From: a virus
IMG/VR virus record: IMGVR_UViG_3300045131_002929
Coordinates: 1 to 64,000 of that record
Strand: one strand, 5' to 3'
DNA: 64,000 nt
The notes under the pieces are model-generated. The model had not been told where the DNA came from, made no database searches, and worked only from the letters and a program-made list of their open reading frames with translations. This document shows, in pieces, positions 12,455 to 35,246 of this stretch (position 1 is its first letter; each line of letters begins with the position of its first letter). A program made the translations under genes and the position numbers.

Positions 12455-13459
12455 TTAGATGGCTGCGCCCGTCTTCCAGCTGTGGTTGGCCGTGCCGCCG
12501 AAGTCGCAGCGGGCGACGGCCGCGCTGTTGCCGACCGCGGCGCCGATGCACTCGTAGCAGAACCAGTCGATGAAGAAGTCTTCCTTCTTCGTCGAGAGGG
12601 TGACGTCGTCCAGCACGAAGAAGCGGCCAAGGAACTTGGGCTCCGCGAACTGATAGATGACGCCGGTGGGGACGAGGTCGGTCTTGATCGTGACGACCCA
12701 CTTGAGCCCCATGATCTGGCGCTCGCCGAAGCCGTTGACGAACATCTCCTCGGAGAGGTCGCCACCGACTTCGTTACGCGTGAGGCCTGCGACATCCCAG
12801 ACGGTGATGTTGTTGACCAGCGCGACGGAGGGGTTCAAGTGGCGGTTGGAGGACGGCAGGGCTTTGCGCATCTCCTTGAGGGTGGTGCGGGTCATGCCGT
12901 TGTATGTGATGTTCTGGCAGAAGTCGATCTCCGCGTTGTAGGAGTTGGCGTCCTGCGTGGCGGCCGCGTTGACGTTGGCCGGGTTGCCCTGCGTGACGAT
13001 ATAGTCCACGACTTGGAGGTACTTGCGGTCCTCTTCGGCCATGATGCGCTTGAGCATGATGTCCTCGAGGATCTGCTTGATGTCCATGTCGTAGGTCAAC
13101 AGGGTGTTGACGTCGGCGCGGAACCGGCGGGACATGATGCGGTCGAACATCACGCGGAAGCGCGGGCCCTTGATGTAATGCCCGATGGGGAGCGTTCCGA
13201 AAGGCACGCTGTAGGCGGCCGGGGAGTTTGGCTCCTTGTCGAGGATGATCACGGGTTTGTCGGTGTCGACCTGGCGGTCCAGGTCGGCGGGCTCGACTTT
13301 GACGGGCGGTTGGAGGCGGCGGGCGAATCCATCCTCATAGAGGCGCATGCGGAGGTAGTCTTCGACACCCTCCTGGGCCTGCTTGCGGATCACGCTGTCG
13401 GACGAGGTGAACCCGTTGATGAGGGTCTCGTTCACCATGCGGACTGTTGGGTCTTGCAT
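12455..13459 (-). CDS. Major capsid protein (HK97 fold)
   Basis: 334 aa after protease/scaffold/decoration genes; LYEDGFARRL, IMAEEDRKYL, QIMGLKWVVTIKTDLVP, YECIGAAVGN..AVAR motifs; strongly biased codons; AAAGGAG RBS; terminator follows. Confidence 0.85.
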   Translation of the reverse strand: MQDPTVRMVNETLINGFTSSDSVIRKQAQEGVEDYLRMRLYEDGFARRLQPPVKVEPADLDRQVDTDKPVIILDKEPNSPAAYSVPFGTLPIGHYIKGPRFRVMFDRIMSRRFRADVNTLLTYDMDIKQILEDIMLKRIMAEEDRKYLQVVDYIVTQGNPANVNAAATQDANSYNAEIDFCQNITYNGMTRTTLKEMRKALPSSNRHLNPSVALVNNITVWDVAGLTRNEVGGDLSEEMFVNGFGERQIMGLKWVVTIKTDLVPTGVIYQFAEPKFLGRFFVLDDVTLSTKKEDFFIDWFCYECIGAAVGNSAAVARCDFGGTANHSWKTGAAI

Positions 13460-13477
13460 TGTAATGGGCTCCTTTGA

Positions 13478-14014
13478 TTATGAGTTGACTGCGGGCATGT
13501 GGGTCGTCCAGAAGGACAGGACCGACTTGTTGTCCGCGTTGGTGGAGGAGCCCCTGGAGACGACGCCCAGGACATGATTCGACGAGTAGAGGTCGGCGGA
13601 CAAGGTGACCTTGCCGATGTCGGCCCCGACCGCGAACGTGAGCAGGTCGTTCGGCTTGTAGATGCCGACGACGAACTCGGTGGTCTGGATCTCGTACCCG
13701 CCCGTGGCGACGAGGCCGGACTGGACTCCGCCGGACATATTGCCGATGTCGGAGTTCGCGTCGAACTCGTTGGTGCCTTGGATGGCGAAGATCGCCATTG
13801 GGGCGTTGTGGGCCACGAGGGCCGTGGCGAGGACGCCGGCGCCGAGGCCGGAGACGAACTTGCCGTTGGCGTTAAGCGTGAGAACTCCGCCTTGGCGAAC
13901 GGATTCGCCTGAAGCGGCCTCGGCTGAGAAGTCGAGGGCGTACATCTGTGAGCGGCCGGAAAGCTCGATGATCGAATGGTCGAACATCTGAGCGGGGGTC
14001 AGTGTGCCTGGCAT
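13478..14014 (-). CDS. Probable capsid decoration/cement protein
   Basis: 178 aa, beta-rich, directly upstream of the capsid gene, AGGAGG RBS, biased codons. Confidence 0.6.
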   Translation of the reverse strand: MPGTLTPAQMFDHSIIELSGRSQMYALDFSAEAASGESVRQGGVLTLNANGKFVSGLGAGVLATALVAHNAPMAIFAIQGTNEFDANSDIGNMSGGVQSGLVATGGYEIQTTEFVVGIYKPNDLLTFAVGADIGKVTLSADLYSSNHVLGVVSRGSSTNADNKSVLSFWTTHMPAVNS

Positions 14015-14041
14015 TGCTATTGCCTCCTGGTCATTTGTTGC

Positions 14042-14374
14042 TTATTGCTTGTACGGTATACCGAACCGCTCGTAGAACTTGCGGTCAGATTCACGGATCG
14101 TGGACGGAGCGGACGCCTTTTTCGGAAGCGCCGCCGGTTTGCCGAGCGACCAGACCTTGCCCTCGTCGGCAGCCTTCTTGCTGAGGGCCGCCATCTTGGC
14201 CACGTCGGTCGTGCCGGTCGCCTCCTGGACGTTGCGGACGAATTGCTCGGCGCCCACCTTCCAGGCCTGCAGCGAGCTGATCTCGGCCGCCATCTTGTCC
14301 ATCTTGCGCGTCTGCGCCTCGACGACGTTGTTGGCGGCCTCCATGAAGTCGAGAACCTCTCTTGGGTCGATCAT
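14042..14374 (-). CDS. Head-module coiled-coil protein with KxA motifs
   Basis: 110 aa; MDKMAA, VAKMAA, LSKKAA, LPKKAS. Confidence 0.75.
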   Translation of the reverse strand: MIDPREVLDFMEAANNVVEAQTRKMDKMAAEISSLQAWKVGAEQFVRNVQEATGTTDVAKMAALSKKAADEGKVWSLGKPAALPKKASAPSTIRESDRKFYERFGIPYKQ

Positions 14375-14386
14375 TGGATTTGCCCC

Positions 14387-15490
14387 TTACTTGAGAAGTC
14401 CGTGGCGGAAGTCGCGGACGACATTTTTAAGATTCTCGAACTGCTCGGCGGCCGTCTTCATCAGAAAGGCCTGTTTGTCGGCCGCGCCCAGCTTGTCGAA
14501 CCAGACCTTCTGCTCCGCGGCTGTCTTCTTGAGGTAGGACTCCTGCGCGGTCTTGTGCAGCTTGGCGAAGGCCTGCTGCTGAGCCGCCGCCTGCTTGCGC
14601 ATGACGAGGGAGCGCTCCATGGCCTGCTTCGCCACCTCGGGGGCCTCGCCGTCGAGCTCGTTCACGGCAGCCTCGATGACTTCCGGCGGAATGCCCATGC
14701 CGATGAGGTCCTGCAGGAGCTGCGCGGCGTCGTCGGGGCTCGGAGCGCCGCCATCCGGCGCGCCGGAGGCGTCCATCTCGGGGATCTCGCCGCCGGGCAT
14801 GGGCGCCGCGCCTTCGTCGCCGTCGGGCTCGCTGGCGTCGCCGTCGGCGGGCATGACGCTGTCCGGGTCTTCCGCCGCGACATCGTCGAGCATCTTGGAA
14901 GCGGTGTCGTCGTCGACTCCGAGGGAGTCTTTGACCGCCTTCTCGTCCTCGGCCCGCTTGGCCAAGCCGAGCTTATAGGATTCGACAAAGTCGACGTAGG
15001 CCTGGTCGGCTGCGGTCTTGACGAGCTTTTCAGCTTGGGGGACCCGGCCGAGGGCCGCTACTTTCTCAAGGATCTTATCGCCCAGGCGGCGGGCCCTCTG
15101 CATCTCATTCGCCATAAACCGTTCCTCCGATTCTTTGTTCATACTTGCGTCTTGCGTGTTGAAATCCCCGGTAACGCCTTGCGGGCGGCTCGGCGCTTTG
15201 TTCGCGGAGCCTTTGGAAGTGGCGCTCTGTCCGTTCGGGATAGCCTCTGCGTAGTCGGAATCCTTCTCCCTGCCGAACTCGCCCTCCTGTGGGTTGGTCC
15301 GCTCCTCCGCCGACACGCCGTCCGTACGGCAGCACACGTTGGCCTTCTCAGTGCCGGCGGGGTAGCCGCCGACATCCTTGGCCTCGACGTCCTCGGTTCC
15401 GCCGCGGTCGGCCGCCTTCTTCTCGAAAGCGATCTTGCCGAGGAAGCTGTCGATGAATCCCAAAGCCTGCTCATTGCTTGTCTTGTGCAT
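14387..15490 (-). CDS. Probable scaffolding protein
   Basis: Acidic and helical, between protease and capsid genes; about 11 KxA motifs. Confidence 0.65.
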   Translation of the reverse strand: MHKTSNEQALGFIDSFLGKIAFEKKAADRGGTEDVEAKDVGGYPAGTEKANVCCRTDGVSAEERTNPQEGEFGREKDSDYAEAIPNGQSATSKGSANKAPSRPQGVTGDFNTQDASMNKESEERFMANEMQRARRLGDKILEKVAALGRVPQAEKLVKTAADQAYVDFVESYKLGLAKRAEDEKAVKDSLGVDDDTASKMLDDVAAEDPDSVMPADGDASEPDGDEGAAPMPGGEIPEMDASGAPDGGAPSPDDAAQLLQDLIGMGIPPEVIEAAVNELDGEAPEVAKQAMERSLVMRKQAAAQQQAFAKLHKTAQESYLKKTAAEQKVWFDKLGAADKQAFLMKTAAEQFENLKNVVRDFRHGLLK

Positions 15491-15565: not shown

Positions 15566-17023
15566 TCAATCTTCGTCTTTTTTAACCTTCTGCAGCATGG
15601 CGGCCATGACCTCCGGACCTTCTTTGCCCTTCAAAGCCGACAGGAGATACTTGCCGTACTCTTCCGAAAGCGCCTTCGCCTTCTTGTCCCCGGACCCTCC
15701 TTCTTTTACTTCGCCGGCCGCGGGTATGCGCTTCAACATCCCGGCCGCCGGCTTTCTCATGATGGTTATCGAAATCCGCCTGGCCAGCGGGGCCTCGGCG
15801 AGCGAGTGGCCGTCCATGAGCCCGGATACGAGCCGACCTATCCCGCCAAGCATCGAGGACGAGCCTTCGTACGCGTCGTCGGACAGCATCGCAGGCAGAT
15901 CGGGCGAGGCGAGCATCGAACGGAACACACCCGGCAGCTCATCCTTGGCCGGCTGGACTATATCCTTGATCTCGTTGAACTTATCACCCATGACGAGCTT
16001 GAGGAACATGTCGATGGGCAGCACGACGCTGCCGCGCGACATGGCGGCGAACGACCCGGGCAGGTCGGCGGCCATCTTACTCAGCGCGCCCTCGCCGTCC
16101 ACGCCCCAGCCCGCCGCCTTGGAAAAGGCGAGCATGACGTCCGCCGCCCAGGGGGCGGTCGACGCGCGCTCGACGTCGGCCTCGACCGCGGCCAGCTTGC
16201 GCAGCAGGGCGAGCTTGCCGATCTCCCTGATCGGGGCGGGCGGTCTGAACCCCTCCAGCAGCGCCAGCTCGTGGGAGCTGACGACCTGCGTGCGCGACGC
16301 CACCTTGCGCAGCGCGAAAGCGATTTTGTCGGCCGGCCGGAACACGCAGCTGATGTCGTGGAACTTAGGGCAGTCGTTGATGGCGAACACCTGGTGGCCT
16401 AGCTTAGTGAGCTCCAGCGGGTGGTCCGCTATGTGCGAGCAGCTTTCGCCGACGGTCCGCCGCTGGTGCGAACATACCGAACAGGTGTCGAACGGGACCA
16501 CAGCGCCCATCGACCAGTACACAGGCTCCTCGCGGGCGATCTTCTCCAACTCCTTTTCCCAGAGCTTGTTGTCCAGTTGGATGATCAGCTCGCCGCGGCC
16601 CATCTTCTCGTTGTAGCATTCCATGGCGATCTTGCCGAGCGCCGCGTCCGGATTCTTGTTGTCGGAGTGGTGCCTGTAGACGTAGGCGCCGTCGCTGAAC
16701 GTTTTGTGGAACTCGCGCAGGCCGCCCTTCAACTGGGCTGTCTTGGGCATGCCCCGCTTCGGCTCGGAAAAAGTGAAGGGCGTCGCGGATCCGTTGAACC
16801 AGTCGCTGTTCGCGTTGGGGCCGTATAGCGCGCCGTCGCCTGTGGTTATGACGTGCACGTAGGACGCGTTCTTGTCGAGCGCCATCCCTTTAAGCCTGTC
16901 GTCGAATACCGCGGCCCGCTTCTCCATGGCCGTCTTGTCCAGGCCTTTGGAGCAGGCGTGTATGAGCTTGGCGACGGGTTCGTCGAACTGGAAGCTGGCC
17001 GGCAGTACTATCTTTTCGATCAT
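15566..17023 (-). CDS. Prohead maturation protease (HK97/assemblin-like) with Zn-finger insert
   Basis: YRHH, WSMG and FHDISCVFRPAD motifs; CSVC-x9-C-x-H directly after the predicted catalytic Ser; position in the head module. Confidence 0.75.
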   Translation of the reverse strand: MIEKIVLPASFQFDEPVAKLIHACSKGLDKTAMEKRAAVFDDRLKGMALDKNASYVHVITTGDGALYGPNANSDWFNGSATPFTFSEPKRGMPKTAQLKGGLREFHKTFSDGAYVYRHHSDNKNPDAALGKIAMECYNEKMGRGELIIQLDNKLWEKELEKIAREEPVYWSMGAVVPFDTCSVCSHQRRTVGESCSHIADHPLELTKLGHQVFAINDCPKFHDISCVFRPADKIAFALRKVASRTQVVSSHELALLEGFRPPAPIREIGKLALLRKLAAVEADVERASTAPWAADVMLAFSKAAGWGVDGEGALSKMAADLPGSFAAMSRGSVVLPIDMFLKLVMGDKFNEIKDIVQPAKDELPGVFRSMLASPDLPAMLSDDAYEGSSSMLGGIGRLVSGLMDGHSLAEAPLARRISITIMRKPAAGMLKRIPAAGEVKEGGSGDKKAKALSEEYGKYLLSALKGKEGPEVMAAMLQKVKKDED

Positions 17024-18231
17024 CAGGCGTACTCCTTGTCTGGTCTGATCGACGCGGAGTCGGCGTATCCGACCTGGTCGCCCCGCTCCTTGGTCTTGGC
17101 GGCGCCGGTCCCGAGCATGTCCTTTAGCTCAAACTGGTCCAACATCCCGCCCTGCGTCAGGTACCGGCGCATGGCCGCGCGGATCCACAGCTTGTTGCCT
17201 GCGAGCGACGGGGTGGTGCGCCTTATGTCATTGTAAGCCTGCAGAGCGTCCATCAGCGGATACCCGTTCAAGACTGGGTCGAATTTGTAGAGCTTCAGAA
17301 AATCGGCTTTGGACTCGACGGCCTTCAAAGCCCCCGAGAGCTTGGCCGGCATGCCGTTGTCAGGGTCCAGCCCTTCGGCTACGCTCGGCGCGCCGCCGGC
17401 GCCCAGCATGGACACTATATTGTCAGCGACTCCCATCTCGCCCGCGGCGGTCTTTGAAAAAAAAACAGCGAGCTCGGCCTCGGCGGCGGCGGCCTTGTCC
17501 AGCTCGCCGACGATCTGGCTCAGCGCGATGTAAGGCGCGTCGGCGGGTAGGAAGACGGCCGACGCGGTCTTCGCCAGCGGCGCCGACATGCGGCAGAACC
17601 GCGACTTCGAGGCGGTCTTGGCGATGAGCTCGGCTCCGCGGGCGACGCCGTGGGCGTTGACGACGTTCTGCGCGAACGAGGCGCGCGCCTCGTCGGACAG
17701 CGGCTCCAGTAATCCGGCGAGCTTATGGAATAGACACTCCGCCGAGGTCCTGGCCTTGCCGATGGAACGCCTGAGCTCCTCCTCCGAGGCTTTCACTACG
17801 GACTCGGCCGCGGCCTGCTTGCGGAAAGCGGTGGCCGGGCTGGGCTGCGCGGTCGCGAACCTCTCGGCGGAGGCTGCTTTGACCATTGCCGGCTGGAAGG
17901 CCCTGGAGGCGAAATCCACTGGGCGGGACTCGGCGGCCGACTTGGACGCGGCGGCCGGTCTGTCCTCGAAGACGCGGGACAGGATCGCCTCTGGCCGGGC
18001 CAAGGGGAAATCCTCGGCGCGGCGGTCTGACGACGCGGCCTTCAGAAAGGCCACGCTCTTCGCCTTGTTGTACATCTCGGCCACGCGGCACACCTCAGGC
18101 GCCGTGAGCCCTCTGCCCGCGGCGGCCTTGTAGACGGCCTCGCTAGGATCCTCGAGGCCCCTGGACAGCTCCGCGGCTTTGTCCAGCACACTGAGAAGCA
18201 GCCGTTCCCTCTCTTTTGGCATCCTATCCAT
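17023..18231 (-). CDS. Head-associated hypothetical protein, KxA-rich
   Basis: 402 aa; about 11 KxA motifs; overlaps both neighbours. Confidence 0.75.
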   Translation of the reverse strand: MDRMPKERERLLLSVLDKAAELSRGLEDPSEAVYKAAAGRGLTAPEVCRVAEMYNKAKSVAFLKAASSDRRAEDFPLARPEAILSRVFEDRPAAASKSAAESRPVDFASRAFQPAMVKAASAERFATAQPSPATAFRKQAAAESVVKASEEELRRSIGKARTSAECLFHKLAGLLEPLSDEARASFAQNVVNAHGVARGAELIAKTASKSRFCRMSAPLAKTASAVFLPADAPYIALSQIVGELDKAAAAEAELAVFFSKTAAGEMGVADNIVSMLGAGGAPSVAEGLDPDNGMPAKLSGALKAVESKADFLKLYKFDPVLNGYPLMDALQAYNDIRRTTPSLAGNKLWIRAAMRRYLTQGGMLDQFELKDMLGTGAAKTKERGDQVGYADSASIRPDKEYA

Positions 18232-19078: not shown

Positions 19079-21334
19079 CTACCCCATAGACTCTACGCTG
19101 TCAGTGTCGCCTAGATCCCCTCCGATGCTGCCTCGCGTCTCGTTCGTGAGCGAGTCGAAGTCCGTCGACTTCTCCTTTAAGAAAAGAATGAGATCGCCGA
19201 GCGTGGCGAACACGCTGCGCAGCGAATCCTCGAGCTTGCTCATAGACTGCGTTCCGAACTGCTCGGCGTACTTGTCGTTGTGCCAGTAGAACAGGAACAG
19301 CATTCTGCCGAGGCGGTCCATCGCCTTCGTCAGATCCTGCAGATACCCGCCGGTGGCCTCGAGCGGTTTGCTGGTGCCCGCCAGCGCCGCGAGGATGGAC
19401 GTGTCCATGACCTCTTTGACGCCCTGGTTGCTGGCGTCCATGGCGGCGTTGAGCGCCTGGGCCGGCATCATCCTGTTCGTAGTCTCCAGCGGGGCCTGCT
19501 CCGTGGACATCCGCGCGCCCGAGCCGGGCTGGTCGCGCTGCAGCTGGTAGAGGCCGGTGCCCGAGTCGCTGGTGTAGTCCTCAGCCATTTTCAACATGTA
19601 GGAAACACTGGCGCCCCTGAACCCGCCGCCCTTCCGCTCGGCCGCCAGCAGGATGGCCTCGGCCTCCTCCTTGCGTATGCCGCAGTCGCGGGCCAGGTGC
19701 AGCATCGCCGCGAGCTTCGAAAGCGAGGGCCTGCCGCCCTTCGGGCTCTCCACGCTGAAGCCGCTGCGGTCGGCGTACACCTTGAGCCGCTTCAGGCCGG
19801 CCTGTTTGCCCATGTGGTAGATCATCACGTCGGAGTCGCCGAGCTGGAAAGGCCGGGCGCCTTCGTACATCTTGTAGTAGACGGTCCCTGTCGGCACTGC
19901 CAGCTCGCCTTTGAACACGCGCAGCTTGCCGTTGGCGCCGGTGAAGCGGATCGTCTTGACGTTGCCGGCGCAGCAGCCGCAGGCCGGCAGTACGTCGCGG
20001 CCGGTCAGGAATCTGGAGCGGTGGTCGGACCCATAGGGCAGATGGACCAGCGCCGCGTCGCCCGAGAGGTCTACGAGCAGGAGCTGCTGGCCTTTCGAGT
20101 CGAGGTAGGCGTCCTTGTCGAACGCCTTGACGTTTTTCAGTTTGTCGTAGGCGGCCTCGGGCAGTCGGGAGCACTGCGTCACGTGAACCTGCTTGGCCGG
20201 GACGCGGTGGTAGCCCTTCTCAGGCTCCGCCGTCGAGATCAGGAACACGTCGTCGGTCGGATGCAGATTGCCGTGCGACGAGCCGCCGCCTTTGACGTTG
20301 GCCCGGAGGATCAGGAAAGCCGCGGTGGTTCCGTCCTGCATCAGCACGTTGTAGATGCCGCTGGCGGCCGGGTTCGTGAAGTTGAAATTGTTGGACTCGG
20401 AGTTGTAGACCTGGGTGGTCTGCCGCCTGGAGTCGCGGATGAGCACGCCCTCGTCGATCAGCTTGGCCTTCTCGTCGTCGGAGAGGCCCGCGACCCGCGG
20501 GTCGTCCACTCCGTTGATGACGTCCAGCCCGCCGGACTGCTCCGACTTGGAGGCGGCTTCCGTCTTTACGTCGCTATCCGGCAAGCCGTCGTCGCGGTGC
20601 TCGCCGCCGCTCGGCTCCGTCTTAAGCATGACCCTCGACTCGCGGACCGGGCCGCCATCCGCCTTGGACGCGCTTACGGCGTACTCGGTCAGGCTGCCGC
20701 GGTTGCCCTTGGACGCCTCTTTGGCTTTCGTCGAGTCAGCCTCGTCGGCGGCCTTGGCCATGGCGCGCAAATCATCCGGGGAGTAATATTTGAGGACGGC
20801 GTTGGCGAAATCGGGCTTGTTCTCCATAGTCCGCGCGAACGTCATGAACGCCTCGGAGCCCAGCTTGCCGAAGCCCTGGATCAGATTGTCGACGGGCTCC
20901 GCCGGCGGGAGCCATCCGCTGTTGCCGGGGGACAGATCGGCCTCCTCGGAGATCTTCTCGTGGGGCGCGAGCATAAGGTGGATGAGATCCGGCTTCTTGG
21001 TCTTGACCTTGGCCCGGTCGACGCCGACGCCGAAACTCTTGATCCGCCCTTTGCGGACTAGGCTGAACCAGCCGTCGTTGAGCGGCGTCATGAGATCCAT
21101 GTCGCGCATGTACATCATCTCCTGGCCCTTGAGCCTGCCTTTGATGAAGAAGGCGGGCACGTAGACCCACATGCCGTCGACGACGAAAGCCATGACTCCG
21201 ACGCCTTTGGTGTCGTCCTCGCTCTTATCGATGAGCTGGAAGCCGACTCGGAACGGGTAGAGCGCGGGAACGCGCTCCTGGAGGCGGGCGTCGGCCAGTT
21301 GGGCGAGCTTCAATTCGAAATTACTGTCGAACAT
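19079..21334 (-). CDS. Large head-module protein of unknown function
   Basis: 751 aa, AGGGG RBS, upstream TATATT element, several KxA motifs. Confidence 0.75.
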   Translation of the reverse strand: MFDSNFELKLAQLADARLQERVPALYPFRVGFQLIDKSEDDTKGVGVMAFVVDGMWVYVPAFFIKGRLKGQEMMYMRDMDLMTPLNDGWFSLVRKGRIKSFGVGVDRAKVKTKKPDLIHLMLAPHEKISEEADLSPGNSGWLPPAEPVDNLIQGFGKLGSEAFMTFARTMENKPDFANAVLKYYSPDDLRAMAKAADEADSTKAKEASKGNRGSLTEYAVSASKADGGPVRESRVMLKTEPSGGEHRDDGLPDSDVKTEAASKSEQSGGLDVINGVDDPRVAGLSDDEKAKLIDEGVLIRDSRRQTTQVYNSESNNFNFTNPAASGIYNVLMQDGTTAAFLILRANVKGGGSSHGNLHPTDDVFLISTAEPEKGYHRVPAKQVHVTQCSRLPEAAYDKLKNVKAFDKDAYLDSKGQQLLLVDLSGDAALVHLPYGSDHRSRFLTGRDVLPACGCCAGNVKTIRFTGANGKLRVFKGELAVPTGTVYYKMYEGARPFQLGDSDVMIYHMGKQAGLKRLKVYADRSGFSVESPKGGRPSLSKLAAMLHLARDCGIRKEEAEAILLAAERKGGGFRGASVSYMLKMAEDYTSDSGTGLYQLQRDQPGSGARMSTEQAPLETTNRMMPAQALNAAMDASNQGVKEVMDTSILAALAGTSKPLEATGGYLQDLTKAMDRLGRMLFLFYWHNDKYAEQFGTQSMSKLEDSLRSVFATLGDLILFLKEKSTDFDSLTNETRGSIGGDLGDTDSVESMG

Positions 21335-24534: not shown

Positions 24535-24861
24535 TTACTTCTCGCCTATAGGTTTATCCTCTAGGATCATGTCGTGCAGCCTATGCCCCAAAGCGTTGAA
24601 GATGCCTTCGCCTGCCGCGCCTTTGGGGTCGGCGTGGTCGGCCCTACCGCTCTCGTGCCGCACGACCACCACCTTACGGACGGGATCGGGGGCGGCGTCG
24701 TACATGGCCCGCTGAGCCTCCGTGAGCAGCGCGCCGTCCGGCCCGACGAGCCCTGCCGGCGTCCATTTGACGCCGAAGGACTTGAGCTTGTCGGAGACCA
24801 TGGAGCCGCCGTCCACGGCCTCGACCGCGGCCTTGTGCAGCTTTTTATCGAAAAGGGCCAT
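24535..24861 (-). CDS. Hypothetical protein with N-terminal LHKAA
   Basis: 108 aa, coupled to its neighbours. Confidence 0.7.
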   Translation of the reverse strand: MALFDKKLHKAAVEAVDGGSMVSDKLKSFGVKWTPAGLVGPDGALLTEAQRAMYDAAPDPVRKVVVVRHESGRADHADPKGAAGEGIFNALGHRLHDMILEDKPIGEK

Positions 24862-25754
24862 CAGTACCCCCTGTCCACGGCGCGCATCCGGCTCATGGCG
24901 TTCTGGATTCTGGCGGCGGCCGTGGGCGGGCCGCGCTTGAGCGGGCGCAGCGCGGCCTGCACCTGCATGCCAGGCATGGGGGCGCCGGCTGGACCTGGCG
25001 CCGGCATCATCGGCGGGGCGAGCCCTGGCGGGGCCATGCCAGGCGGCGGTATGCCCGCGCCTGGATCCTGCTGGGCCATGGCGTCGAGCGCCTGGGGCGT
25101 GAAAGGCTGCTGGGTCTGGTCGAGCGCGCCTTCGTCAGGCGGCGCGGCGTCGGGCGGCGGGGTGCCGCCGGCCGCCTCCACGTCGGACTGGCCCACGTCG
25201 CCGGGCTTGACGCCGAGCGCGGCCGGGGATATCCCCAGCTGGCCGGCCATCGCGAAAAGCATCCGCTCGATCTCGTCGAGCCTGTCTGAAAGTTCGGCGA
25301 CCGTCGCCTTGCCGGAGCCATCGCTTTTGTTCGACTCATGGGCGTCCAGGATCTTGGGCATCATGTCCATCAGCGCCTCCATGGTGACCGGCGTGCCGCT
25401 CGGCGGCGGGGCGCCTGGGTCCATTCCAGGGGGCGGGCCTGCCGGCGGCGGCGCGCCTGGCGGGGGCGGGGCCATGCTGGGATCCACGCCGGCGCCTAGG
25501 CCCATGCTCTGCAGGATCTGGCTCATGGTGGCGGGGTCGATGGGGCCTTGCGGGCCGACCGGGCCTTGCGGGGTCACCTGGATGCCTTGCTGCTGCAGCG
25601 CCTGCGCCACCTGCGGCGACGCCATCATCTGCATCATGGTGGCCGGGTCCATGGCCGGGGCCGGCGCGGCGGGCGGCGGCGTGGGCGGCATAGGCGAGAA
25701 AGCCACTTTGCGCATCAATCTGGTTGTCAATCTATGAAATCTGGTGTCTTCCAT
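24861..25754 (-). CDS. Pro/Met/Gly-rich disordered protein with N-terminal MRKVA
   Basis: 297 aa, low complexity, short central coiled coil. Confidence 0.75.
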   Translation of the reverse strand: MEDTRFHRLTTRLMRKVAFSPMPPTPPPAAPAPAMDPATMMQMMASPQVAQALQQQGIQVTPQGPVGPQGPIDPATMSQILQSMGLGAGVDPSMAPPPPGAPPPAGPPPGMDPGAPPPSGTPVTMEALMDMMPKILDAHESNKSDGSGKATVAELSDRLDEIERMLFAMAGQLGISPAALGVKPGDVGQSDVEAAGGTPPPDAAPPDEGALDQTQQPFTPQALDAMAQQDPGAGIPPPGMAPPGLAPPMMPAPGPAGAPMPGMQVQAALRPLKRGPPTAAARIQNAMSRMRAVDRGY

Positions 25755-25816
25755 GCTCCGATTCTCCTTTTTATAAAGTAGCCGCCGTGCGTGATAGAGA
25801 AAAACGTAAAATAAAA

Positions 25817-26932
25817 CTATGCCGTCCTAGCCGCGGCACCACTACCGCCTGTCCCTGCCATCCGTATAAGGGCTTTAGCCAAGGCGGCCATCTCCTCGTC
25901 GCTGGAGTCTTCAAAGCGCACATCACTGACAGCCTTCCGTCCATCATTACTACCGGACGCGCGTAGAAGCCTGCTCAATCTACGGACCCCAGCCTCGGTC
26001 GGCACGTCATGTTCAGCCTTGATGGCGTCATTCCTTACAGGCGCAGGCGGAAGCCTACTGACCGCCGTAAGTCCGTCAGGCGCCATTGCCTTCCCTGCAT
26101 TATGCTGGTCTATATTGGCCCCGGCGGCACGCATCCTTAGCGACGGATCGACGCCGCGCCAGTAGGCGGCCCGCGCGTCCGACTCGCGCTGCTGCGGGTT
26201 GTACGCGCTGAGGTAGTCCCGCAGCTGCGACCGGCTGGTCGGCGCGGAATACATTTTATCGTCGACGTTGTCGCTGTCGAGCCAGCGCTGGAACGACCGC
26301 GGGCCGTTCGGCCGGCCTTCGAAGGCGGTCGCCACATCCTTGGCGTAATCCGCGTAGGGCTCGGTCCGCGGCGGGGGCGCCGGCCGGTCGGCGGTCAGCT
26401 GGTTGGCGTTGTTGAGCGTCCGCAGCCTGGTCATCTCGCTGTTGTACCGCTCGTATTCGTCGCGTGACTGCGCCTCGCCGTCCCACCCTAGGAACCTACC
26501 ATCCTTTGACACAGACTGGTTGCCGGCTCTGGCCGCGGGCGACATGAAAGGCGCGGGCTCGCCGGTGCCGTCCCCGGGGTCTTCGTATCTAACCTGCGGG
26601 GCGGGGCCTGGCGGGCCCGCGTAGCCCGCGGCGCGCGCGGCCAGGTCGAAGGCCCGGGCCTTCTGCTCGAAGGTCCGCCCCTGCACGGGCTGCGGCGCGT
26701 TCGGGTCCACGCTGGTTATGCGCGTGGTCTGCCCGCCGCCTTGGCGCCACACCTGCTGGCCGGCGTCGGTGTCCGCCCGGCTCACGTAGTCGTTGCCTTG
26801 CGGGTTGGCCGGGCCGGGGTCCACAAGCGGTGTTTCCTTATCGTTGTTTATCTGCCGCCAAACAGGCGGCTGGGCGGCCGCGGCCGCTTTGCAAAGCTCC
26901 ATGCGCACTTTATCGGAATACACGGCGCCCAT
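25817..26932 (-). CDS. Hypothetical protein with N-terminal LCKAA
   Basis: 371 aa, G-rich RBS. Confidence 0.7.
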   Translation of the reverse strand: MGAVYSDKVRMELCKAAAAAQPPVWRQINNDKETPLVDPGPANPQGNDYVSRADTDAGQQVWRQGGGQTTRITSVDPNAPQPVQGRTFEQKARAFDLAARAAGYAGPPGPAPQVRYEDPGDGTGEPAPFMSPAARAGNQSVSKDGRFLGWDGEAQSRDEYERYNSEMTRLRTLNNANQLTADRPAPPPRTEPYADYAKDVATAFEGRPNGPRSFQRWLDSDNVDDKMYSAPTSRSQLRDYLSAYNPQQRESDARAAYWRGVDPSLRMRAAGANIDQHNAGKAMAPDGLTAVSRLPPAPVRNDAIKAEHDVPTEAGVRRLSRLLRASGSNDGRKAVSDVRFEDSSDEEMAALAKALIRMAGTGGSGAAARTA

Positions 26933-26934
26933 GG

Positions 26935-27297
26935 CTAAGCCCCCCGTACTTTGTTAAGCGCCGCGGACGCGGCCGCGCGGCCCTTGTCGCCGGCCCAGCC
27001 GGACGCGGCCGCGAGGGCCAGCGCCAGGGCGGGCGGAATCGTCAGGCCCGCGCCCAGGCCGAGCGCGCCTTTCGATAAGGCGTCGGCGGCCATGCTGGCC
27101 GTATCCTCCATGAAGCCGTTGCCGGCATAGGCCGGCTCGGCGGTCAGCTTGCCGCGCAGGTAGCCGAACAGCGACTTATTGGCCGCGGCCAGCTCGCCGC
27201 CCAGGCCTTTCGCGGCCGTGGCGGCGCCGGCGGGCAAGCGCGCGGCGGCCTGTTTGACCAGGCGCGCCGTCCGGCTGTCATATTCGCGTGTGTTCAA
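26935..27297 (-). CDS. Ala/Gly-rich protein with hydrophobic C-terminal segment and N-terminal LVKQAA
   Basis: 120 aa, TTG start after a GGGGG RBS; upstream TATATT. Confidence 0.6.
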   Translation of the reverse strand: MNTREYDSRTARLVKQAAARLPAGAATAAKGLGGELAAANKSLFGYLRGKLTAEPAYAGNGFMEDTASMAADALSKGALGLGAGLTIPPALALALAAASGWAGDKGRAAASAALNKVRGA

Positions 27298-27364
27298 ATC
27301 GGCCCCCAGTCTTCAACATGCCGAAAAAAGTAGTGAGCAAGGCTGTGTGTAATATAATGGCGGC

Positions 27365-28234
27365 TCAGCCTGGCGGCGGCTGGGCCGGAATGGCGGCCCA
27401 CTGCCTGGCGTCAAGGCCTGCGGCCGGCTGCGCCTGGCTTGCGACGGAGGCCGTCGGGGCGGCGGCGGGCTTCGGGTCGTGCTTCGCGTGCCACGCTTTT
27501 TGCTGCTCGGCGAAGGCCGCGGCGCCGGCGTCATGGTCGGCCAGCCTTTTGTCATTGGCGGCGGCCCACTCCGCAAGCGCGCCTTTGGACTTGCCGCCAT
27601 TGGACTGCGCCCACGCCGCGTCGAGGTCCTCGGCGGAGCCCGGCCGCGGCCGGGCCGGCTCGGCTTGGGTCGCGGCCGGGGCGGGCTTCGCGGCCTGAAT
27701 GCCGCCCCACTGCCTGGCGTCAAGGCCGTCAAGGCCTGATGCGGCCGGCTCCGGCTTAGGGGCCGCGGCGGCCTGGGCCTGGTTCACGGCCGTCGGCCGC
27801 GGCCAAAGCCGCTCGAACTCCGCGGCGGCCGCCGCCCTGGACTGCGCCAGCGCATTGTCCACTGGCTTGGCGGCCGTCGGCCGCGGCGCCTGCGCCTTCA
27901 TAGGCTGCCTGAAGACGGCGCCGCCCGGATCGAAGCGCGGCGCGGCGCCGTCGAGGTTGTTCTGCCGCATCCGGGCCATGTTGTCGAAGGGGTTGCCCGC
28001 CGTGGCCTTCGGCGCGCTGGCCGGGTCATAGGCGGCGCGCTCGGCCTGCGCCAGACCGGATGCGTAGCCGCCGGCCGCCCGAACGGGCGCGGGGCGGCCG
28101 CGCGCGTCATAGCCTAGCCGGTCGTTGTAAGCCTCGGCCTTGGCCTTGTTGCCGCCGAAGGCGTCCTCGGCCGCCATTTTATCCATAAGTCCGCGGATGG
28201 CCGTCCTAGCCTGCTTTGAAAGTATCGAAGCCAT
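27365..28234 (-). CDS. Ala/Pro-rich protein with N-terminal LSKQA/MDKMAA and a duplicated GLDARQW motif
   Basis: 289 aa; cactgcctggcgtcaaggcc occurs twice (about 27399 and 27708). Confidence 0.7.
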   Translation of the reverse strand: MASILSKQARTAIRGLMDKMAAEDAFGGNKAKAEAYNDRLGYDARGRPAPVRAAGGYASGLAQAERAAYDPASAPKATAGNPFDNMARMRQNNLDGAAPRFDPGGAVFRQPMKAQAPRPTAAKPVDNALAQSRAAAAAEFERLWPRPTAVNQAQAAAAPKPEPAASGLDGLDARQWGGIQAAKPAPAATQAEPARPRPGSAEDLDAAWAQSNGGKSKGALAEWAAANDKRLADHDAGAAAFAEQQKAWHAKHDPKPAAAPTASVASQAQPAAGLDARQWAAIPAQPPPG

Positions 28235-28238
28235 TTCA

Positions 28239-28421
28239 TCACACCATTGTGGATTCGGCCGGGCCCGCCTGCGCGGGCTGCGGCGCGTTCTCGTTCGGGT
28301 TGGGTTTGGCGGCCACGCCCGGGGGCCGCGGTTTGACGCCGGCGCGGCGCGCCGCGAGCCTTAGGTCCGCCAGCGAGCCGGCGGCCTTATCGAACAGATC
28401 CTTGTTGTATAGTTCAACCAT
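28239..28421 (-). CDS. Small protein with FDKAAG
   Basis: Start set at ATG 28421 (MVELYNKDLFDKAAG); TATATT about 20 nt upstream. Confidence 0.6.
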   Translation of the reverse strand: MVELYNKDLFDKAAGSLADLRLAARRAGVKPRPPGVAAKPNPNENAPQPAQAGPAESTMV

Positions 28422-28484
28422 ATGGGGCGCCCTCACTGTGGAATATAGCGCGCCGCCTACTTCAAACCAAACGTGGAGTTCTCT

Positions 28485-30412: not shown

Positions 30413-30418
30413 ACACAT

Positions 30419-31785: not shown

Positions 31786-32730
31786 TTACTTCAGCCTGGC
31801 GCCAAGGCGGCGCGCCATGGCCAAGGCCATCTCCTCGGCCTTGGCCGCCGATCCCCAGCCGCCGCGGTCGCAGCCGGCGATCACGGCCTTGCCGCCCGAG
31901 GTCGGACCCCAGACCTCTTTGGCCAACTGGGCGCAGTCGACGCCATCGATGGCGTCGCAGAGGCTGACGGTCGTCGCGAAGGGCGCGCAGCCCTGCCACG
32001 ACACGACCGCCTTGTACAGGACGCCGTCGTGCCTGTACAGGTGGTTCACGAAGGCCGGGCGTCCGCCCTTCTCCGGGGCGCGCCTGATCACGACGGCGTG
32101 GCCGACGTCGGCCAGGTCCTCGAAGGACTCGGCTTCGAGGGACTCGTTGGCTTTCGCCCAGCAGGCGCGCTTGGCCTCGAGGGCGGCGTCGCCGGCGATG
32201 GCGCGGCGCCAAATGGAGAACCACTCCTCGACGAGGGCGGTGACGTCCATAGACGTCTGGCCCTCCGCCCAGAGCGGCGTCCTGGGCGCGCACGCCCACA
32301 TGGTCTCGATGACGCGGGCCGCGGCGTCGTTCATGGCCCAGAGTTCGGCCTTGATCTCGGGCAGGCGGTGCGGCCCGCGGACGTCGACGTCGACCGCGGC
32401 CGCGTAGCGCGCGGCCTGAACCGCCAGGTCGCTGTCCTGGAGCTCGACTCCGAGCATGGCGGCTAAGCCGAGCGCGGCGTCGAGGTCGATGTGGCTCGCC
32501 ACACCGTATGCGGCGGGCTTCTCGCCGATCTGGAGGCGGCGGACGCATGGCGCGTCCTCGTTTTCCCGCCCTTCGTGGTGGTCCCAATCGACCGCGGCGG
32601 CGATCCCGGCGGGCCTCTGGCCGCCCCAGGTGGCCTCGCACAATCCGACCCGGAGTCCGTCGCGGACGGCCTCGAGGGCGGCTGAGGTGGCTGCTTCGGC
32701 GGTTTTGAACATAATGATGCGGTAGCTCAT
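31786..32730 (-). CDS. Early protein with DHH and SHxDLD motifs (possible DHH-type phosphoesterase)
   Basis: AGGAGG RBS; DWDHH precedes ASHIDLDA; late GGKAVIAG. Confidence 0.6.
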   Translation of the reverse strand: MSYRIIMFKTAEAATSAALEAVRDGLRVGLCEATWGGQRPAGIAAAVDWDHHEGRENEDAPCVRRLQIGEKPAAYGVASHIDLDAALGLAAMLGVELQDSDLAVQAARYAAAVDVDVRGPHRLPEIKAELWAMNDAAARVIETMWACAPRTPLWAEGQTSMDVTALVEEWFSIWRRAIAGDAALEAKRACWAKANESLEAESFEDLADVGHAVVIRRAPEKGGRPAFVNHLYRHDGVLYKAVVSWQGCAPFATTVSLCDAIDGVDCAQLAKEVWGPTSGGKAVIAGCDRGGWGSAAKAEEMALAMARRLGARLK

Positions 32731-33153: not shown

Positions 33154-33154
33154 T

Positions 33155-33457: not shown

Positions 33458-33468
33458 AGAATTCCTCC

Positions 33469-34228: not shown

Positions 34229-34293
34229 CAATTGATTATGCCCATTTAAGGTCTTTTATTAAGCGCGGGCCGGGCGCCCTCCTTAAAGGTTCC
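34229..34293 (-). promoter_or_regulatory. Bipartite early promoter motif, copy 5
   Basis: GGAACCTTTAAGGAGGG...GCTTAATAAAAG..GGGCATAATCAATTG; back-to-back with a plus-strand TATATT at 34302. Confidence 0.75.
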
Positions 34294-34341
34294 GCGGCCG
34301 CTATATTAACAACTAGCCAACAACCAACCGTGGAGTCAGAT

Positions 34342-34692
34342 ATGAGCCTGCTTTCAAAGACAGCCCGCGAGTTCCTAGCCTTCAGGAAGCGAGCCGCGAT
34401 GAGCCCGCCGAAAGACCAGCCGGAGCCGGCGGCCAGCCCCGAGGCGGCCATGGCCGAGGCCCAGCAGGCGGCGCAGATGGAGCTGGAGCGCGCCAAGCTG
34501 GACGCGCAGACCATGGTCCAGGCGGAAAAGACCAAGATCGAAGCCGAGAACGAGGTGCGCAGGATGCGCGAGGAGGCGAAAACGGCGCAGCAGCCGCAGC
34601 CTGGCGCGGATTCTTCGCAGATGGCGCCGCCGAACCCCTTGGGCAATCCGCCGCCCGGGCTGCCCGCGCAAGGCGGCATGCCGCAGGCTTAA
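34342..34692 (+). CDS. Coiled-coil/Pro-rich protein with N-terminal LSKTA and FRKRAA
   Basis: GGAG RBS before ATG 34342; first gene of the right arm. Confidence 0.75.
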   Translation: MSLLSKTAREFLAFRKRAAMSPPKDQPEPAASPEAAMAEAQQAAQMELERAKLDAQTMVQAEKTKIEAENEVRRMREEAKTAQQPQPGADSSQMAPPNPLGNPPPGLPAQGGMPQA

Positions 34693-34731
34693 AGGCCGCA
34701 GGGCAGCTTCACAGCCGGGAGGGCACGCCGC

Positions 34732-34998
34732 ATGGACAAGCCGTTCGCACCCCGCGACCCCATAGCCCACGGGCCGGTCGACGGAACCCACCTGACCGAC
34801 TACTGGCGGGCCGCATGCCTGCGCGACGCCGACGCCGCCGGCCCGGGCATGGTGCCGGCCGGCCTGGCCGCGTGCAGGGACGCCGCGCCGGGCGCCAGAG
34901 GCTGGCCGGGCGCGCGGACCATACTCCAACCTGACGGAAAAATAATGTTCCACGACGGCGGCGCCTGGCGCGGGCTGCAGGAGGACGCGGGATGGTAG
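34732..34998 (+). CDS. Hypothetical protein
   Basis: GGAGGG RBS, 88 aa. Confidence 0.55.
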   Translation: MDKPFAPRDPIAHGPVDGTHLTDYWRAACLRDADAAGPGMVPAGLAACRDAAPGARGWPGARTILQPDGKIMFHDGGAWRGLQEDAGW

Positions 34999-35246
34999 AG
35001 CAGCTGAAGGGCGGGGCCGCCGACGGCAGGCCGGCGCGGACCTTCGACAAGGCCGACCTGGCCAAGGGGCGCGCCGTGGAGCGCGAGCACACGGCCGACC
35101 CGCGGGCCGCGGCCGAGATAGCCAAGGACCACCTGGCCGAGTTCCCGGACTATTACGCCGAGCTGGCGCGGATGGAGGCCAAACTGGAGCGGCGCGAGCT
35201 GAACAAGCGCGCATATCTGCTCGGCTACCTAAGGCGGGACCGCTGA
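34992..35246 (+). CDS. DUF5661-like phage protein
   Basis: LAKGRAVEREHT.D..AAEIAKDHLAEFPDYY..L..ME pattern. Confidence 0.7.
   Translation: MVEQLKGGAADGRPARTFDKADLAKGRAVEREHTADPRAAAEIAKDHLAEFPDYYAELARMEAKLERRELNKRAYLLGYLRRDR

What the first reader, a model, noticed from the sequence alone, without database searches (positions are those of the whole stretch)
12455..35246. A hydrophobic-x-K-x-A code marks head-module and candidate internal proteins
Seen: [LMFVI]-x-K-x-A, often followed by A/S, is dense in the scaffold (LGKIA, LEKVA, LVKTA, LAKRA, VAKQA, MRKQA, LHKTA, LKKTA, LMKTA) and in 17023..18231 (LDKAA, VYKAA, FLKAA, MVKAA, FRKQA, IAKTA, LAKTA, FSKTA). It flanks the protease domain (LDKTA, MEKRA before; LRKVA after) and occurs once near the capsid N-terminus (IRKQA). 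It sits within about 25 residues of the start of otherwise unrelated small proteins at 24535, 24861, 25817, 26935, 27365, 28239 and 34342. It looks sparse in sheath, tube and early genes. Known: T4 gp21 and phiKZ gp175 cut head proteins at short Glu-ending motifs that also delimit targeting propeptides. Inference: a Lys-x-Ala-specific maturation/targeting system that identifies the packaged proteome from sequence alone.
Basis: partly seen in the sequence, partly recalled or inferred. Interest (0 to 1): 0.82.

Follow-up and report, generated by a model that had tools for sequence, protein, structure and literature searches.

The report
Lys-x-Ala head-protease cleavage code
The head-assembly proteins of this uncultured Arash-like phage, and of thousands of related phages, carry a strict hydrophobic-x-Lys-x-Ala motif. 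It is most likely the cutting signal of the phage's own T4-type head-maturation protease, a specificity I found described in no paper, although no cleavage has been measured.

Summary
In four adjacent head genes (14042-18231) [LMFVI]-x-K-x-A occurs 37 times against 4.0 expected (z 17). Arg, Glu, Ser or Gly variants and shifted registers are not enriched, and L-x-K-x-A is the top hit of an unbiased pattern scan.

The same motif is enriched in the syntenic genes of seven relatives with 37-65% GC, including Salmonella phage Arash and Vibrio phage D69. It is present at residue ~24 of 119 of 120 capsid-protein homologues. It is 93-95% conserved at two sites flanking the protease domain in 173 protease-family representatives. 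It lies at residues 3-25 of 32 of 168 other genes, against 5.3 expected.

The 485-aa protein at 15566-17023 has the T4 gp21/herpesvirus assemblin fold (Z 9.9). The best reading is a prohead-protease recognition and cleavage code with T4-like N-terminal leaders. Cleavage itself, the scissile bond and packaging are untested.

The claim that the motif identifies the packaged proteome goes too far. The portal has no motif, and the beta-prime piece of the RNA polymerase that is abundant in Arash virion preparations shows no enrichment.

The scan has noted this K-x-A code in several other genomes of the family. I found no paper that describes it. I class it as a new variant of a known kind.

The parts
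15566..17023 (-). Prohead protease, 485 aa. The gp21/assemblin-fold domain spans about residues 16-230 and is followed by a helical C-terminal domain. It carries 12 motifs. Family-conserved sites are MEKRA 33-37 (16913-16927), LRKVAS 238-243 (16295-16312) and LRKLAA 274-279 (16187-16204). Candidate catalytic residues are His119 (within 16664-16681) and Ser171 (within 16499-16525).
   Evidence: VIA-align top hit is T4 gp21 5jbl_A (Z 9.9, rmsd 2.9, 138 aa), followed by the VZV, HCMV and KSHV proteases. PHROG 18299 head maturation protease, E 7e-4. Invariant residues. Site conservation is 93-95% in 173 representatives. The model has pLDDT below 50 at 231-249 and 425-444. Inteins sit directly after His119 and after Ser171-Met-Gly/Ala in homologues.
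14387..15490 (-). Scaffold-like acidic protein, 367 aa, with 10 motifs in three clusters separated by two acidic low-complexity stretches.
   Evidence: 10 vs 0.94 expected. Its position between protease and capsid gene is conserved in 7 relatives, with enrichment in 6 of them and none in L007 (2 vs 0.77). Sequence map. No family hit, so the scaffold role is inferred from position and composition.
14042..14374 (-). Small motif-dense core protein, 110 aa, 5 motifs.
   Evidence: 5 vs 0.44 expected. Syntenic small genes in relatives carry 2-4 motifs.
17023..18231 (-). 402-aa protein with 10 motifs, all within residues 16-262, followed by a 140-aa motif-free C-terminal domain. Candidate head-internal protein with a long propeptide cut many times.
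   Evidence: 10 vs 1.25 expected. The predicted fragments are 14-54 aa, then one of 140 aa. Orthologues in all 7 relatives also confine their sites to the first 250-320 residues.
19079..21334 (-). 751-aa virion protein of unknown function with 5 motifs. It is a weak homologue of Arash gp218.
   Evidence: 5 vs 1.27 expected, p 0.01. Five metagenomic orthologues have 7-8 motifs in two clusters, Arash gp218 has 4, and the D69 gene has 2. tblastn links it to Arash gp218. No fold or family lead.
12455..13459 (-). Major capsid protein, 334 aa. It has a single motif, IRKQA, at residues 24-28 (residues 24-29 map to 13373-13390). Predicted N-terminal propeptide of about 26-28 aa.
   Evidence: PHROG 2522 major head protein, E 5e-9. 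Homologous to the Arash gp226 capsid protein. Lys26 and Ala28 are invariant in 48 aligned homologues. The motif is present within the first 35 residues in 119 of 120 homologues and in all 8 genomes compared.
24535..28436 (-). Six consecutive genes of unrelated, partly Ala/Pro-rich proteins: 24535-24861, 24861-25754, 25817-26932, 26935-27297, 27365-28234 and 28239-28436. Each has a motif at residues 5-17. Candidate leader-tagged head-internal proteins.
   Evidence: N-terminal sequences and per-gene shuffle probabilities of 0.015-0.08, joint about 5e-9. Coordinates of each site. Across 8 genomes, 32 of 168 non-dense genes have a motif at residues 3-25 vs 5.3 +/- 2.2 expected. No family hit apart from one weak match (PHROG 26555, E 0.0013) for the five searched; 28239-28436 was not searched.
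34342..34692 (+). 117-aa protein beginning MSLLSKTAREFLAFRKRAAM, with two motifs in the first 18 residues.
   Evidence: ORF listing and translation.
31786..32730 (-). 314-aa protein with MFKTA at residues 7-11. A weaker candidate for a leader-tagged protein.
   Evidence: The single-gene probability of 0.035 is not significant on its own.

Best explanation
The motif [L>M>I,F,V]-x-K-[V/T/E/A/Q, never G, rarely D]-A-[A/S preferred, almost never P]-[E/D/L] is the substrate-recognition and cleavage motif of this phage family's prohead protease. That protease is the gp21/assemblin-fold domain encoded at 15566-17023. By analogy with T4 and phiKZ-type phages, I propose the following sequence of events. 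The protease and the motif-dense core proteins co-assemble inside the procapsid. The protease then frees itself at the conserved sites on either side of its catalytic domain. It cuts the scaffold-like proteins and the long N-terminal part of the 402-aa protein into short peptides. It removes about 26-28 residues from the capsid protein. It also clips 8-21-residue leaders from a set of unrelated small proteins, which therefore probably reside in the head. Shown here: the motif's specificity, enrichment, placement and conservation, and the protease fold. Inferred: that the motif is cut, that the leaders serve in targeting, and which bond is cut. For the scissile bond I lean about 60:40 towards cleavage after the Ala (K-x-A|A/S, as in herpesvirus A|S sites) over cleavage after the Lys (L-x-K|, the register of T4's L-x-E|).
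For: Specificity: 37 vs 4.0 (z 17) in four genes, with no enrichment of Arg/Glu/Ser/Gly variants or shifted registers. LxKxA is the top pattern in an unbiased scan. Codons at the motif are mixed.

Conservation across 37-65% GC: the same syntenic genes are enriched in Arash, D69 and five metagenomic relatives. Protease proteins average 7.2 motifs vs 0.88 expected over 116 representatives at no more than 50% identity.

Placement: sites at profile positions 33 and 238 are kept in 93% and 95% of 173 representatives and lie in low-confidence linkers of the model. The capsid-protein site is present in 119 of 120 homologues. N-terminal placement is 32 vs 5.3 expected.

Enzyme: the fold match to T4 gp21 is Z 9.9, followed by herpesvirus proteases. 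His119 and Ser171 are invariant, and inteins are inserted directly after each in homologues.

Precedent: T4 L/I-x-E, phiKZ S/A-x-E and SPN3US A-x-E motifs; propeptides cut at several sites; self-cleavage of the protease; capsid targeting leaders (PMC9026906; PMC10052503; PMC9958956).

Register: the residue after Ala is A or S in 52% of 269 instances. In a tally of 270 instances Pro occurs there once vs 11.4 expected, and Gly is absent (0 vs 18.9) from the residue between Lys and Ala.
Against: No protein-level datum exists. The Arash virion study reports no termini and its supplement holds no peptide lists. It also reports 100% coverage of the scaffold-like gp223 in virion preparations, which either reflects impure particles or argues against complete removal.

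Some conserved motif copies lie inside the folded protease domain (LEKIA at 159, the V-x-K-P-A-D block at 227), so not every instance can be a cleavage site.

In capsid proteins the residue after Ala is often Q or K rather than A/S.

Pro is depleted over the whole stretch after the motif and enriched before it, so the Pro argument for the register could merely reflect the start of a helix.

There is no sequence-level match to Pfam protease families or to PDB sequences.
Confidence: 0.7

Rival explanations
1. The motif is a docking or targeting motif that is bound but not cut. It would be recognised by the inner capsid surface, the scaffold or the protease's helical C-terminal domain in order to recruit proteins into the procapsid. 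Cleavage, if any, would happen at other sites.
For: N-terminal placement on unrelated proteins fits a targeting signal as well as a cleavage signal. In T4 the targeting and processing determinants of the leader are separable (PMC9026906). The Arash scaffold-like gp223 was recovered with 100% coverage from virion preparations.
Against: Ten copies spread through a scaffold, and conserved copies in disordered linkers on both sides of a protease domain, match the pattern of self-processing and scaffold degradation. A docking motif would not need them. No alternative enriched motif was found: the T4-type [LI]xE (16 vs 16.7) and herpes-type [VLI]xAS (3 vs 3.4) are at expectation, and phiKZ-type [SAG]xE is only mildly over (55 vs 41.5, z 2.6). 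All top patterns of the unbiased scan are parts of this motif.
Confidence: 0.13
2. The motif is a structural feature of amphipathic or coiled-coil helices (a helix-start signature) in head-core proteins. It would be inherited through internal duplication, with no enzyme reading it.
For: Pro and Gly are enriched just before the motif and Pro is depleted after it, as at helix starts. Scaffold-like proteins are helical, and the scaffold C-terminus holds short LxKTAAEQ-like repeats.
Against: Lys cannot be replaced by Arg, nor Ala by Ser or Gly, and neighbouring registers are flat. This is not expected of a helix propensity, least of all in a 64% GC genome that favours Arg. Information outside positions -2 to +4 is about 0.1 bit, so the copies are not long repeats. 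The motif also occurs in non-homologous contexts (capsid N-terminus, protease linkers modelled as disordered, leaders of unrelated proteins) and is positionally conserved at 27-35% protein identity.
Confidence: 0.07
3. The invariant Lys marks a site of covalent modification or cross-linking of head proteins (isopeptide bond, acylation, methylation) rather than proteolysis.
For: The strict requirement for Lys rather than Arg is typical of Lys-directed chemistry. HK97-type capsids use Lys in isopeptide cross-links (established knowledge, not tested here).
Against: No modifying enzyme was identified in the module. Multiple copies in scaffold-type proteins and in short leaders have no precedent for such chemistry. 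The capsid-protein site lies in the N-terminal 28 residues, not in the folded shell domains.
Confidence: 0.04

Closest known systems
Bacteriophage T4 prohead protease gp21 (MEROPS S77), its L/I-x-E cleavage rule, and the capsid targeting sequences of IPI-III and Alt
   Same: Same fold: it is the best structural match (Z 9.9). The protease gene sits in the head module. There are many sites in scaffold or core proteins, sites at both ends of the protease, an N-terminal propeptide on the capsid protein, and short N-terminal leaders ending in the motif on unrelated small proteins. A hydrophobic residue lies two positions before the key charged residue.
   Different: The key residue is Lys rather than Glu, and an obligatory Ala two positions later has no T4 counterpart. 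T4-type [LI]xE is not enriched here (16 vs 16.7). There is no sequence-level similarity to Pfam or PDB entries. The protein has an extra helical C-terminal domain of about 250 aa and an invariant Cys/Cys/Cys/His cluster. The capsid propeptide is about 27 aa rather than 65.
Prohead proteases of phiKZ-like giant phages (phiKZ gp175, 201phi2-1, SPN3US gp245; S/A/G-x-E or A-x-E motif)
   Same: Long propeptides are cut at several redundant sites, and self-cleavage occurs C-terminal to the protease domain. The motif is used to predict head proteins (PMC10052503, PMC9026906). A phage-encoded multisubunit RNA polymerase is present in virions, as reported for the relative Arash (PMC10585845).
   Different: Those enzymes cut after Glu. 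Here [SAG]xE is only mildly over-represented (55 vs 41.5, z 2.6). The portal of this phage carries no motif, whereas the portals of phiKZ-like phages have long propeptides.
Herpesvirus assemblin (MEROPS S21), R- and M-site consensus (V/L/I)-x-A|S
   Same: Same fold class: the VZV, HCMV and KSHV proteases are among the next viral-protease matches (Z 6.9, 5.0 and 4.0). Ala is obligatory, followed mostly by Ser or Ala, with Pro excluded at that place.
   Different: The position two residues before the Ala is Lys here, not hydrophobic. The hydrophobic residue lies four before it. [VLI]xAS is not enriched. Cleavage after Ala is an inference.
HK97 gp4 protease (MEROPS S78), final capsid cleavage Lys103|Ser104
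   Same: It is a precedent for a prohead protease cutting after Lys.
   Different: HK97 has no defined multi-residue motif and no separate scaffold or leader-tagged cargo. The HK97 protease did not appear among the structural matches listed, which does not exclude similarity.

Membership tests
gp21/assemblin-fold prohead serine proteases (MEROPS clan SH: S77, S80, S78, S21) | Assemblin-like beta-barrel fold of the catalytic domain | tested here: met
   The AF2 model (mean pLDDT 78; about 75-93 in blocks over residues 41-230) aligned to 48,161 PDB representatives. T4 gp21 5jbl_A ranks first (Z 9.9, rmsd 2.9, 138 of 165 residues), with VZV at 6.9, HCMV at 5.0 and KSHV at 4.0. Foldseek alone gave only weak herpes-protease rows.
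gp21/assemblin-fold prohead serine proteases (MEROPS clan SH: S77, S80, S78, S21) | Conserved His and Ser nucleophile, in the order His...Ser | tested here: inconclusive
   His119 and Ser171 are invariant in 27 homologues, 52 residues apart. In homologues, inteins sit directly after His119 and after Ser171-Met-Gly/Ala, as is typical of active-site insertions.
gp21/assemblin-fold prohead serine proteases (MEROPS clan SH: S77, S80, S78, S21) | Sequence-profile membership of a curated protease family (Pfam Peptidase_S77, S78 or S80) | tested here: not met
   No Pfam family at E<=0.01. A profile of 27 homologues finds no protease among PDB sequences. The only hit is PHROG 18299 'head maturation protease', E 7e-4.
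gp21/assemblin-fold prohead serine proteases (MEROPS clan SH: S77, S80, S78, S21) | Gene lies in the head module next to the scaffold and capsid genes | tested here: met
   The order is protease, scaffold-like gene, 110-aa gene, 178-aa gene, capsid gene. It is conserved in Arash, D69 and five metagenomic loci.
T4/phiKZ-type cleavage rule | Cleavage C-terminal to Glu at L/I-x-E or S/A/G-x-E | tested here: not met
   [LI]xE is 16 vs 16.7 expected and [SAG]xE is 55 vs 41.5 in the dense genes, while HxKxA[AS] is 26 vs 1.1. This is sequence statistics only; no cleavage was assayed.
T4-type capsid targeting sequence (CTS) leaders | Short N-terminal leader ending in the protease motif on otherwise unrelated proteins | tested here: met
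   Six consecutive genes have the motif at residues 5-17 (joint P about 5e-9). Across 8 genomes, 32 of 168 genes vs 5.3 expected.
T4-type capsid targeting sequence (CTS) leaders | The leader is sufficient to direct a protein into the head and is removed there | not testable with these tools
   This needs fusion-protein packaging assays and virion proteomics.
Herpesvirus-type (V/L/I)-x-A|S site | Ala at P1 with Ser/Ala at P1' and a hydrophobic P3 | tested here: inconclusive
   Ala is obligatory. The next residue is A 27% or S 25%, and Pro occurs 1 of 270 times vs 11.4 expected. However, the residue two before the Ala is Lys, and [VLI]xAS is not enriched. The scissile bond is unknown.

The most novel reading that the evidence does not exclude
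This would be the first gp21/assemblin-fold prohead protease lineage whose specificity is not Glu- or simple Ala|Ser-based. It would read a strict hydrophobic-x-Lys-x-Ala word that is shared by more than 3,000 protease clusters from uncultured phages. The word would double as the end of a leader that loads unrelated proteins into the head. If so, the processed head proteome of a whole, almost unstudied phage family, which has a culturable member in Salmonella phage Arash, could largely be read from sequence and exploited for cargo loading.
Probability: 0.6. Interest if true: 0.68.

Novelty: new variant of a known kind. Interest (0 to 1): 0.6.

Why it matters
Cleavage codes of prohead proteases are known from only a few phage groups: T4 (L/I-x-E), phiKZ-like phages (S/A/G-x-E) and herpesviruses (x-A|S). 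A strict Lys-x-Ala word in a gp21-fold enzyme would show how far the specificity of this ancient protease fold can move.

It would give an immediate annotation rule for a very large group of uncultured phages: 3,340 protease clusters at E<=1e-3. Most head genes in this group are 'hypothetical'. The rule would mark which proteins are scaffold or core, where the mature capsid protein probably starts, and which small proteins are likely head-internal or ejected.

Salmonella phage Arash and the Vibrio phages D69, D148 and D181 are in culture, so the prediction can be tested directly. If the leaders target cargo, they offer a T4-CTS-like packaging tag in a new phage chassis.

Tried and rejected
- A scan of viral contigs with the single protease sequence found no relative. 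Relatives came from protein searches instead.
- Foldseek against the PDB with the whole 485-aa model gave no match at E<=0.001, only weak EBV and KSHV protease rows. The exhaustive VIA-align search was needed.
- A profile search of PDB sequences gave only chance matches, such as RFC and alcohol dehydrogenase.
- The Arash paper's supplement is a gene table without peptide lists, so termini could not be read.
- Literature searches for a Lys/Ala phage cleavage motif found nothing relevant. The phage P1 paper describes a leader but no such motif.
- PHROGs gave no usable lead for five of the six leader-bearing small proteins (one weak hit, PHROG 26555, E 0.0013) or for the extra dense gene outside the window. 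tblastn against cultured phages found nothing for that gene.
- The ESM Atlas gave no usable lead for the 751-aa protein.
- The AF2 model of the capsid protein was poor (mean pLDDT 56; below 50 over most of residues 17-127). It could not show where the motif sits relative to the fold.
- Depletion of the motif in the mature capsid region (5 vs 37.9 expected in 120 homologues) looked striking. I rejected it as evidence because control motifs deviate as much (HxExA 10 vs 46, HxKxG 8 vs 26) and the sequences are related.
- Motifs at residue 1 (MIKTA, MLKQA and the like) were set aside as uninformative.
- A DNA-level cause was rejected. Codons at the motif are mixed, and the motif persists from 37% to 65% GC.


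Full report
CONTEXT. The window is the first 64 kb of a 146.6-kb IMG/VR viral contig estimated to be 79% complete, with about 64% GC. Genes run on the minus strand up to about 34.1 kb (tail side, then head module, then small genes) and on the plus strand from 34342. The only cultured relatives found among 50,697 phage records are Salmonella phage Arash and three Vibrio phages (D69, D148, D181). Identity is 26-27% for the capsid protein and 35% for the protease. Arash was published as an 'orphan' myovirus, and its virion preparations contain abundant phage RNA polymerase subunits. That paper does not mention a protease or processing (PMC10585845).

OBSERVATION. Against residue shuffles of each gene, [LMFVI]-x-K-x-A is roughly ten-fold enriched in four adjacent genes:
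- 14042-14374: 5 vs 0.44
- 14387-15490: 10 vs 0.94
- 15566-17023: 12 vs 1.38
- 17023-18231: 10 vs 1.25
- 19079-21334 is about four-fold enriched: 5 vs 1.27.

The tail-side genes 109-11676 hold a single copy, and the plus-strand genes are at expectation. Pooled, the four dense genes hold 37 copies against 4.0 expected (z 17).

The controls decide against a composition or helix-periodicity artefact. HxRxA is 3 vs 2.7, HxExA 2 vs 3.8, HxKxS 3 vs 1.8, HxKxG 2 vs 1.9, and HKxxA, HxxKA and AxKxH are about 1x. In addition, 37 of the 43 K-x-A triplets have the hydrophobic residue at -2. An unbiased enumeration of exact three-residue patterns at nine spacings ranks LxKxA first (21 vs 1.84, p 1e-15), and every other top pattern is a part or an extension of it. 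Over the whole 146-kb contig the head module is the hot spot. One further dense gene lies outside the window, next to the large terminase: 86947-88173, 408 aa, 10 copies.

N-TERMINAL PLACEMENT. The six consecutive genes 24535-28436 each carry a copy starting at residue 5-17. Per-gene shuffle probabilities of 0.015-0.08 multiply to about 5e-9. Across the window and seven related loci, 32 of 168 genes outside the dense set have a copy at residues 3-25. The expectation is 5.3 +/- 2.2, and the maximum in 400 shuffles was 12. Beyond the motif, the leaders share no obvious sequence.

COMPARATIVE EVIDENCE. The motif is enriched in the syntenic genes of Arash (gp220 9, gp222 6, gp223 8, gp225 6) and D69 (0268 9, 0270 6, 0271 9, 0273 5). 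The same holds in five metagenomic loci whose GC ranges from 37% to 65%. That range, together with the mixed codons at the motif, rules out a DNA-level signal.

In the capsid protein, Lys26 and Ala28 are invariant across 48 aligned homologues. Of 120 homologues at 53-84% identity, 119 have the motif within the first 35 residues, mostly at 24-25. All eight genomes compared agree.

For the protease, a profile search of 1.84 billion representatives finds 3,340 clusters at E<=1e-3 and 1,784 at E<=1e-30. Among 116 full-length representatives the mean is 7.2 copies vs 0.88 expected. Copies at profile positions 33 (before the catalytic domain) and 238 (just after it, consensus LRKVAS) are kept in 93% and 95% of 173 sequences. 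Position 280 is kept in 68% and position 440 in 40%.

THE ENZYME. The AF2 model of the 485-aa protein (mean pLDDT 78) has a confident domain up to about residue 230 and a helical C-terminal domain. It has low-confidence linkers at 231-249 and 425-444, exactly where conserved motif copies lie. Exhaustive structural alignment puts T4 gp21 (5jbl_A) first (Z 9.9, rmsd 2.9, 138 residues). Herpesvirus proteases (VZV 6.9, HCMV 5.0, KSHV 4.0) follow, interleaved with MCE-domain proteins at Z about 6 that I regard as generic beta-barrel matches. No Pfam protease family or PDB sequence matches, so this is a sequence-divergent lineage of the fold.

His119 and Ser171 are invariant. In intein-bearing homologues the inteins sit directly after VYKNH|C and after FSM(A/G)|C, the kind of site inteins favour. 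I take these two residues as the catalytic pair. This remains an inference, because I could not superpose coordinates.

EXTENDED MOTIF AND REGISTER. From 269 instances in eight genomes:
- Position -2: L 48%, M 22%, I 12%, F 10%, V 8%.
- Position -1: favours E.
- Position +1 (between Lys and Ala): favours V, T, E, A, Q.
- The residue after Ala: A 27%, S 25%.
- The next residue: E 24%, L 15%, D 12%.

In a tally of 270 instances, Gly never occurs at +1 (0 vs 18.9 expected) and Asp is rare there (4 vs 18.5). Pro follows the Ala only once (vs 11.4).

Two registers are possible. L-x-K| copies the P3/P1 spacing of T4's L-x-E|. K-x-A|A/S copies the herpesvirus A|S bond, and it is favoured by the small residue and the Pro exclusion after Ala. 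However, Pro is depleted over the whole downstream stretch, and capsid proteins often have Q or K after the Ala. I therefore hold only a 60:40 preference for cleavage after Ala.

MECHANISM PROPOSED. By analogy with T4 and the phiKZ-like phages (PMC9026906; PMC9958956; PMC10052503), the protease co-assembles with the core. It releases itself at sites 33 and 238. It degrades the scaffold-like proteins; predicted fragments are mostly 5-54 aa, plus two acidic stretches of about 110-119 aa. It chops the first 262 residues of the 402-aa protein and leaves a 140-aa C-terminal domain, a layout kept in all seven orthologues. It trims the capsid protein, and it removes leaders from small proteins that then stay in the head. 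Only the sequence statistics, the conservation and the fold are shown. Every biochemical step is inferred.

LIMITS OF THE 'CODE'. The portal (G000 115742-117550) has no copy. The RNA polymerase beta-prime piece in the head module (21534-24533, interrupted by an intein) shows no enrichment, at 2 vs 1.76. The beta/beta-prime-N protein has 6 copies in 2,305 aa (no shuffle expectation was computed). Some conserved copies lie inside the folded protease domain. The motif therefore marks substrates of the protease better than it marks 'the packaged proteome'. A single internal copy in a protein carries no information.

RELATION TO EARLIER NOTES OF THIS SCAN. The same K-x-A code was noted and followed up on several other genomes of this family. 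Another note on this genome pointed to K-x-A in glycine-zipper proteins around 111-119 kb. In my genome-wide count the genes that match that note have one or two copies each, and I ran no shuffles on them. These notes are not independent evidence, and all figures above were computed here.

NOVELTY. I found no paper describing a Lys/Ala prohead-protease motif. The kind of system, a protease code plus leaders, is well known. The specificity and the lineage are new, and the claim is predicted rather than measured.

Noticed in passing
homologues of window 15566-17023 (P0022, P0035, P0036, P0038, P0021, P0040): Many protease homologues are 620-1,270 aa long because one to three inteins interrupt them. 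The inteins are inserted directly after the invariant His119 (VYKNH|C), after Ser171-Met-Gly/Ala (FSMA|C), and before Cys195. The window's own gene has no intein.
   Followed up: partly
window 16430-16489 (protease residues 179-198): An invariant Cys181, Cys184 and Cys195 plus a nearly invariant His197 form a cluster inside the protease domain that looks like a metal-binding site. I know of none in T4 gp21 (from memory, unchecked).
   Followed up: no
G000 86947-88173 (outside the window; L009:2948-4174): This is the only other motif-dense gene in the 146-kb contig (408 aa, 10 copies). It lies next to a 908-aa large terminase (88795-91521) whose N-terminal ~400 residues precede the terminase match. 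It has no PHROG hit and no tblastn match in cultured phages.
   Followed up: partly
window 21534-24533: The C-terminal piece of RNA polymerase beta-prime (Rpb1 domain 5) is interrupted by an intein with a LAGLIDADG endonuclease. It is encoded inside the head module, as in Arash (gp216).
   Followed up: partly
window 28930-34265: The gene-poor stretch carries two repeat families. One is five copies of a 40-nt element (consensus near CAATGGATAATGCCCTGGCCGGCCTTTTATTAAGCC) at 29531, 30052, 30546, 31397 and 34226. The other is five copies of a GC-stem plus A-run element at 28930, 29362, 29596, 30703 and 31511, which would read as terminators on the minus strand. They may be phage promoters and terminators. 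No tRNA genes were found in the window.
   Followed up: partly
window 13478-14014: The 178-aa gene between the small core protein and the capsid gene has no motif in the window or in any of the five metagenomic relatives. This fits a protein that is not processed, such as a decoration or accessory head protein. It has only a weak PHROG hit to a glycosyltransferase family.
   Followed up: no
window 12455-13459: The public gene call for the capsid protein starts at Met8 (327 aa) rather than Met1 (334 aa). The predicted leader would then be 7 residues shorter.
   Followed up: no
window 35246-38974: This 1,242-aa plus-strand protein has long poly-Ser tracts, reflected in the SxSS-type patterns that dominate the non-head genes in the unbiased scan.
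   Followed up: no
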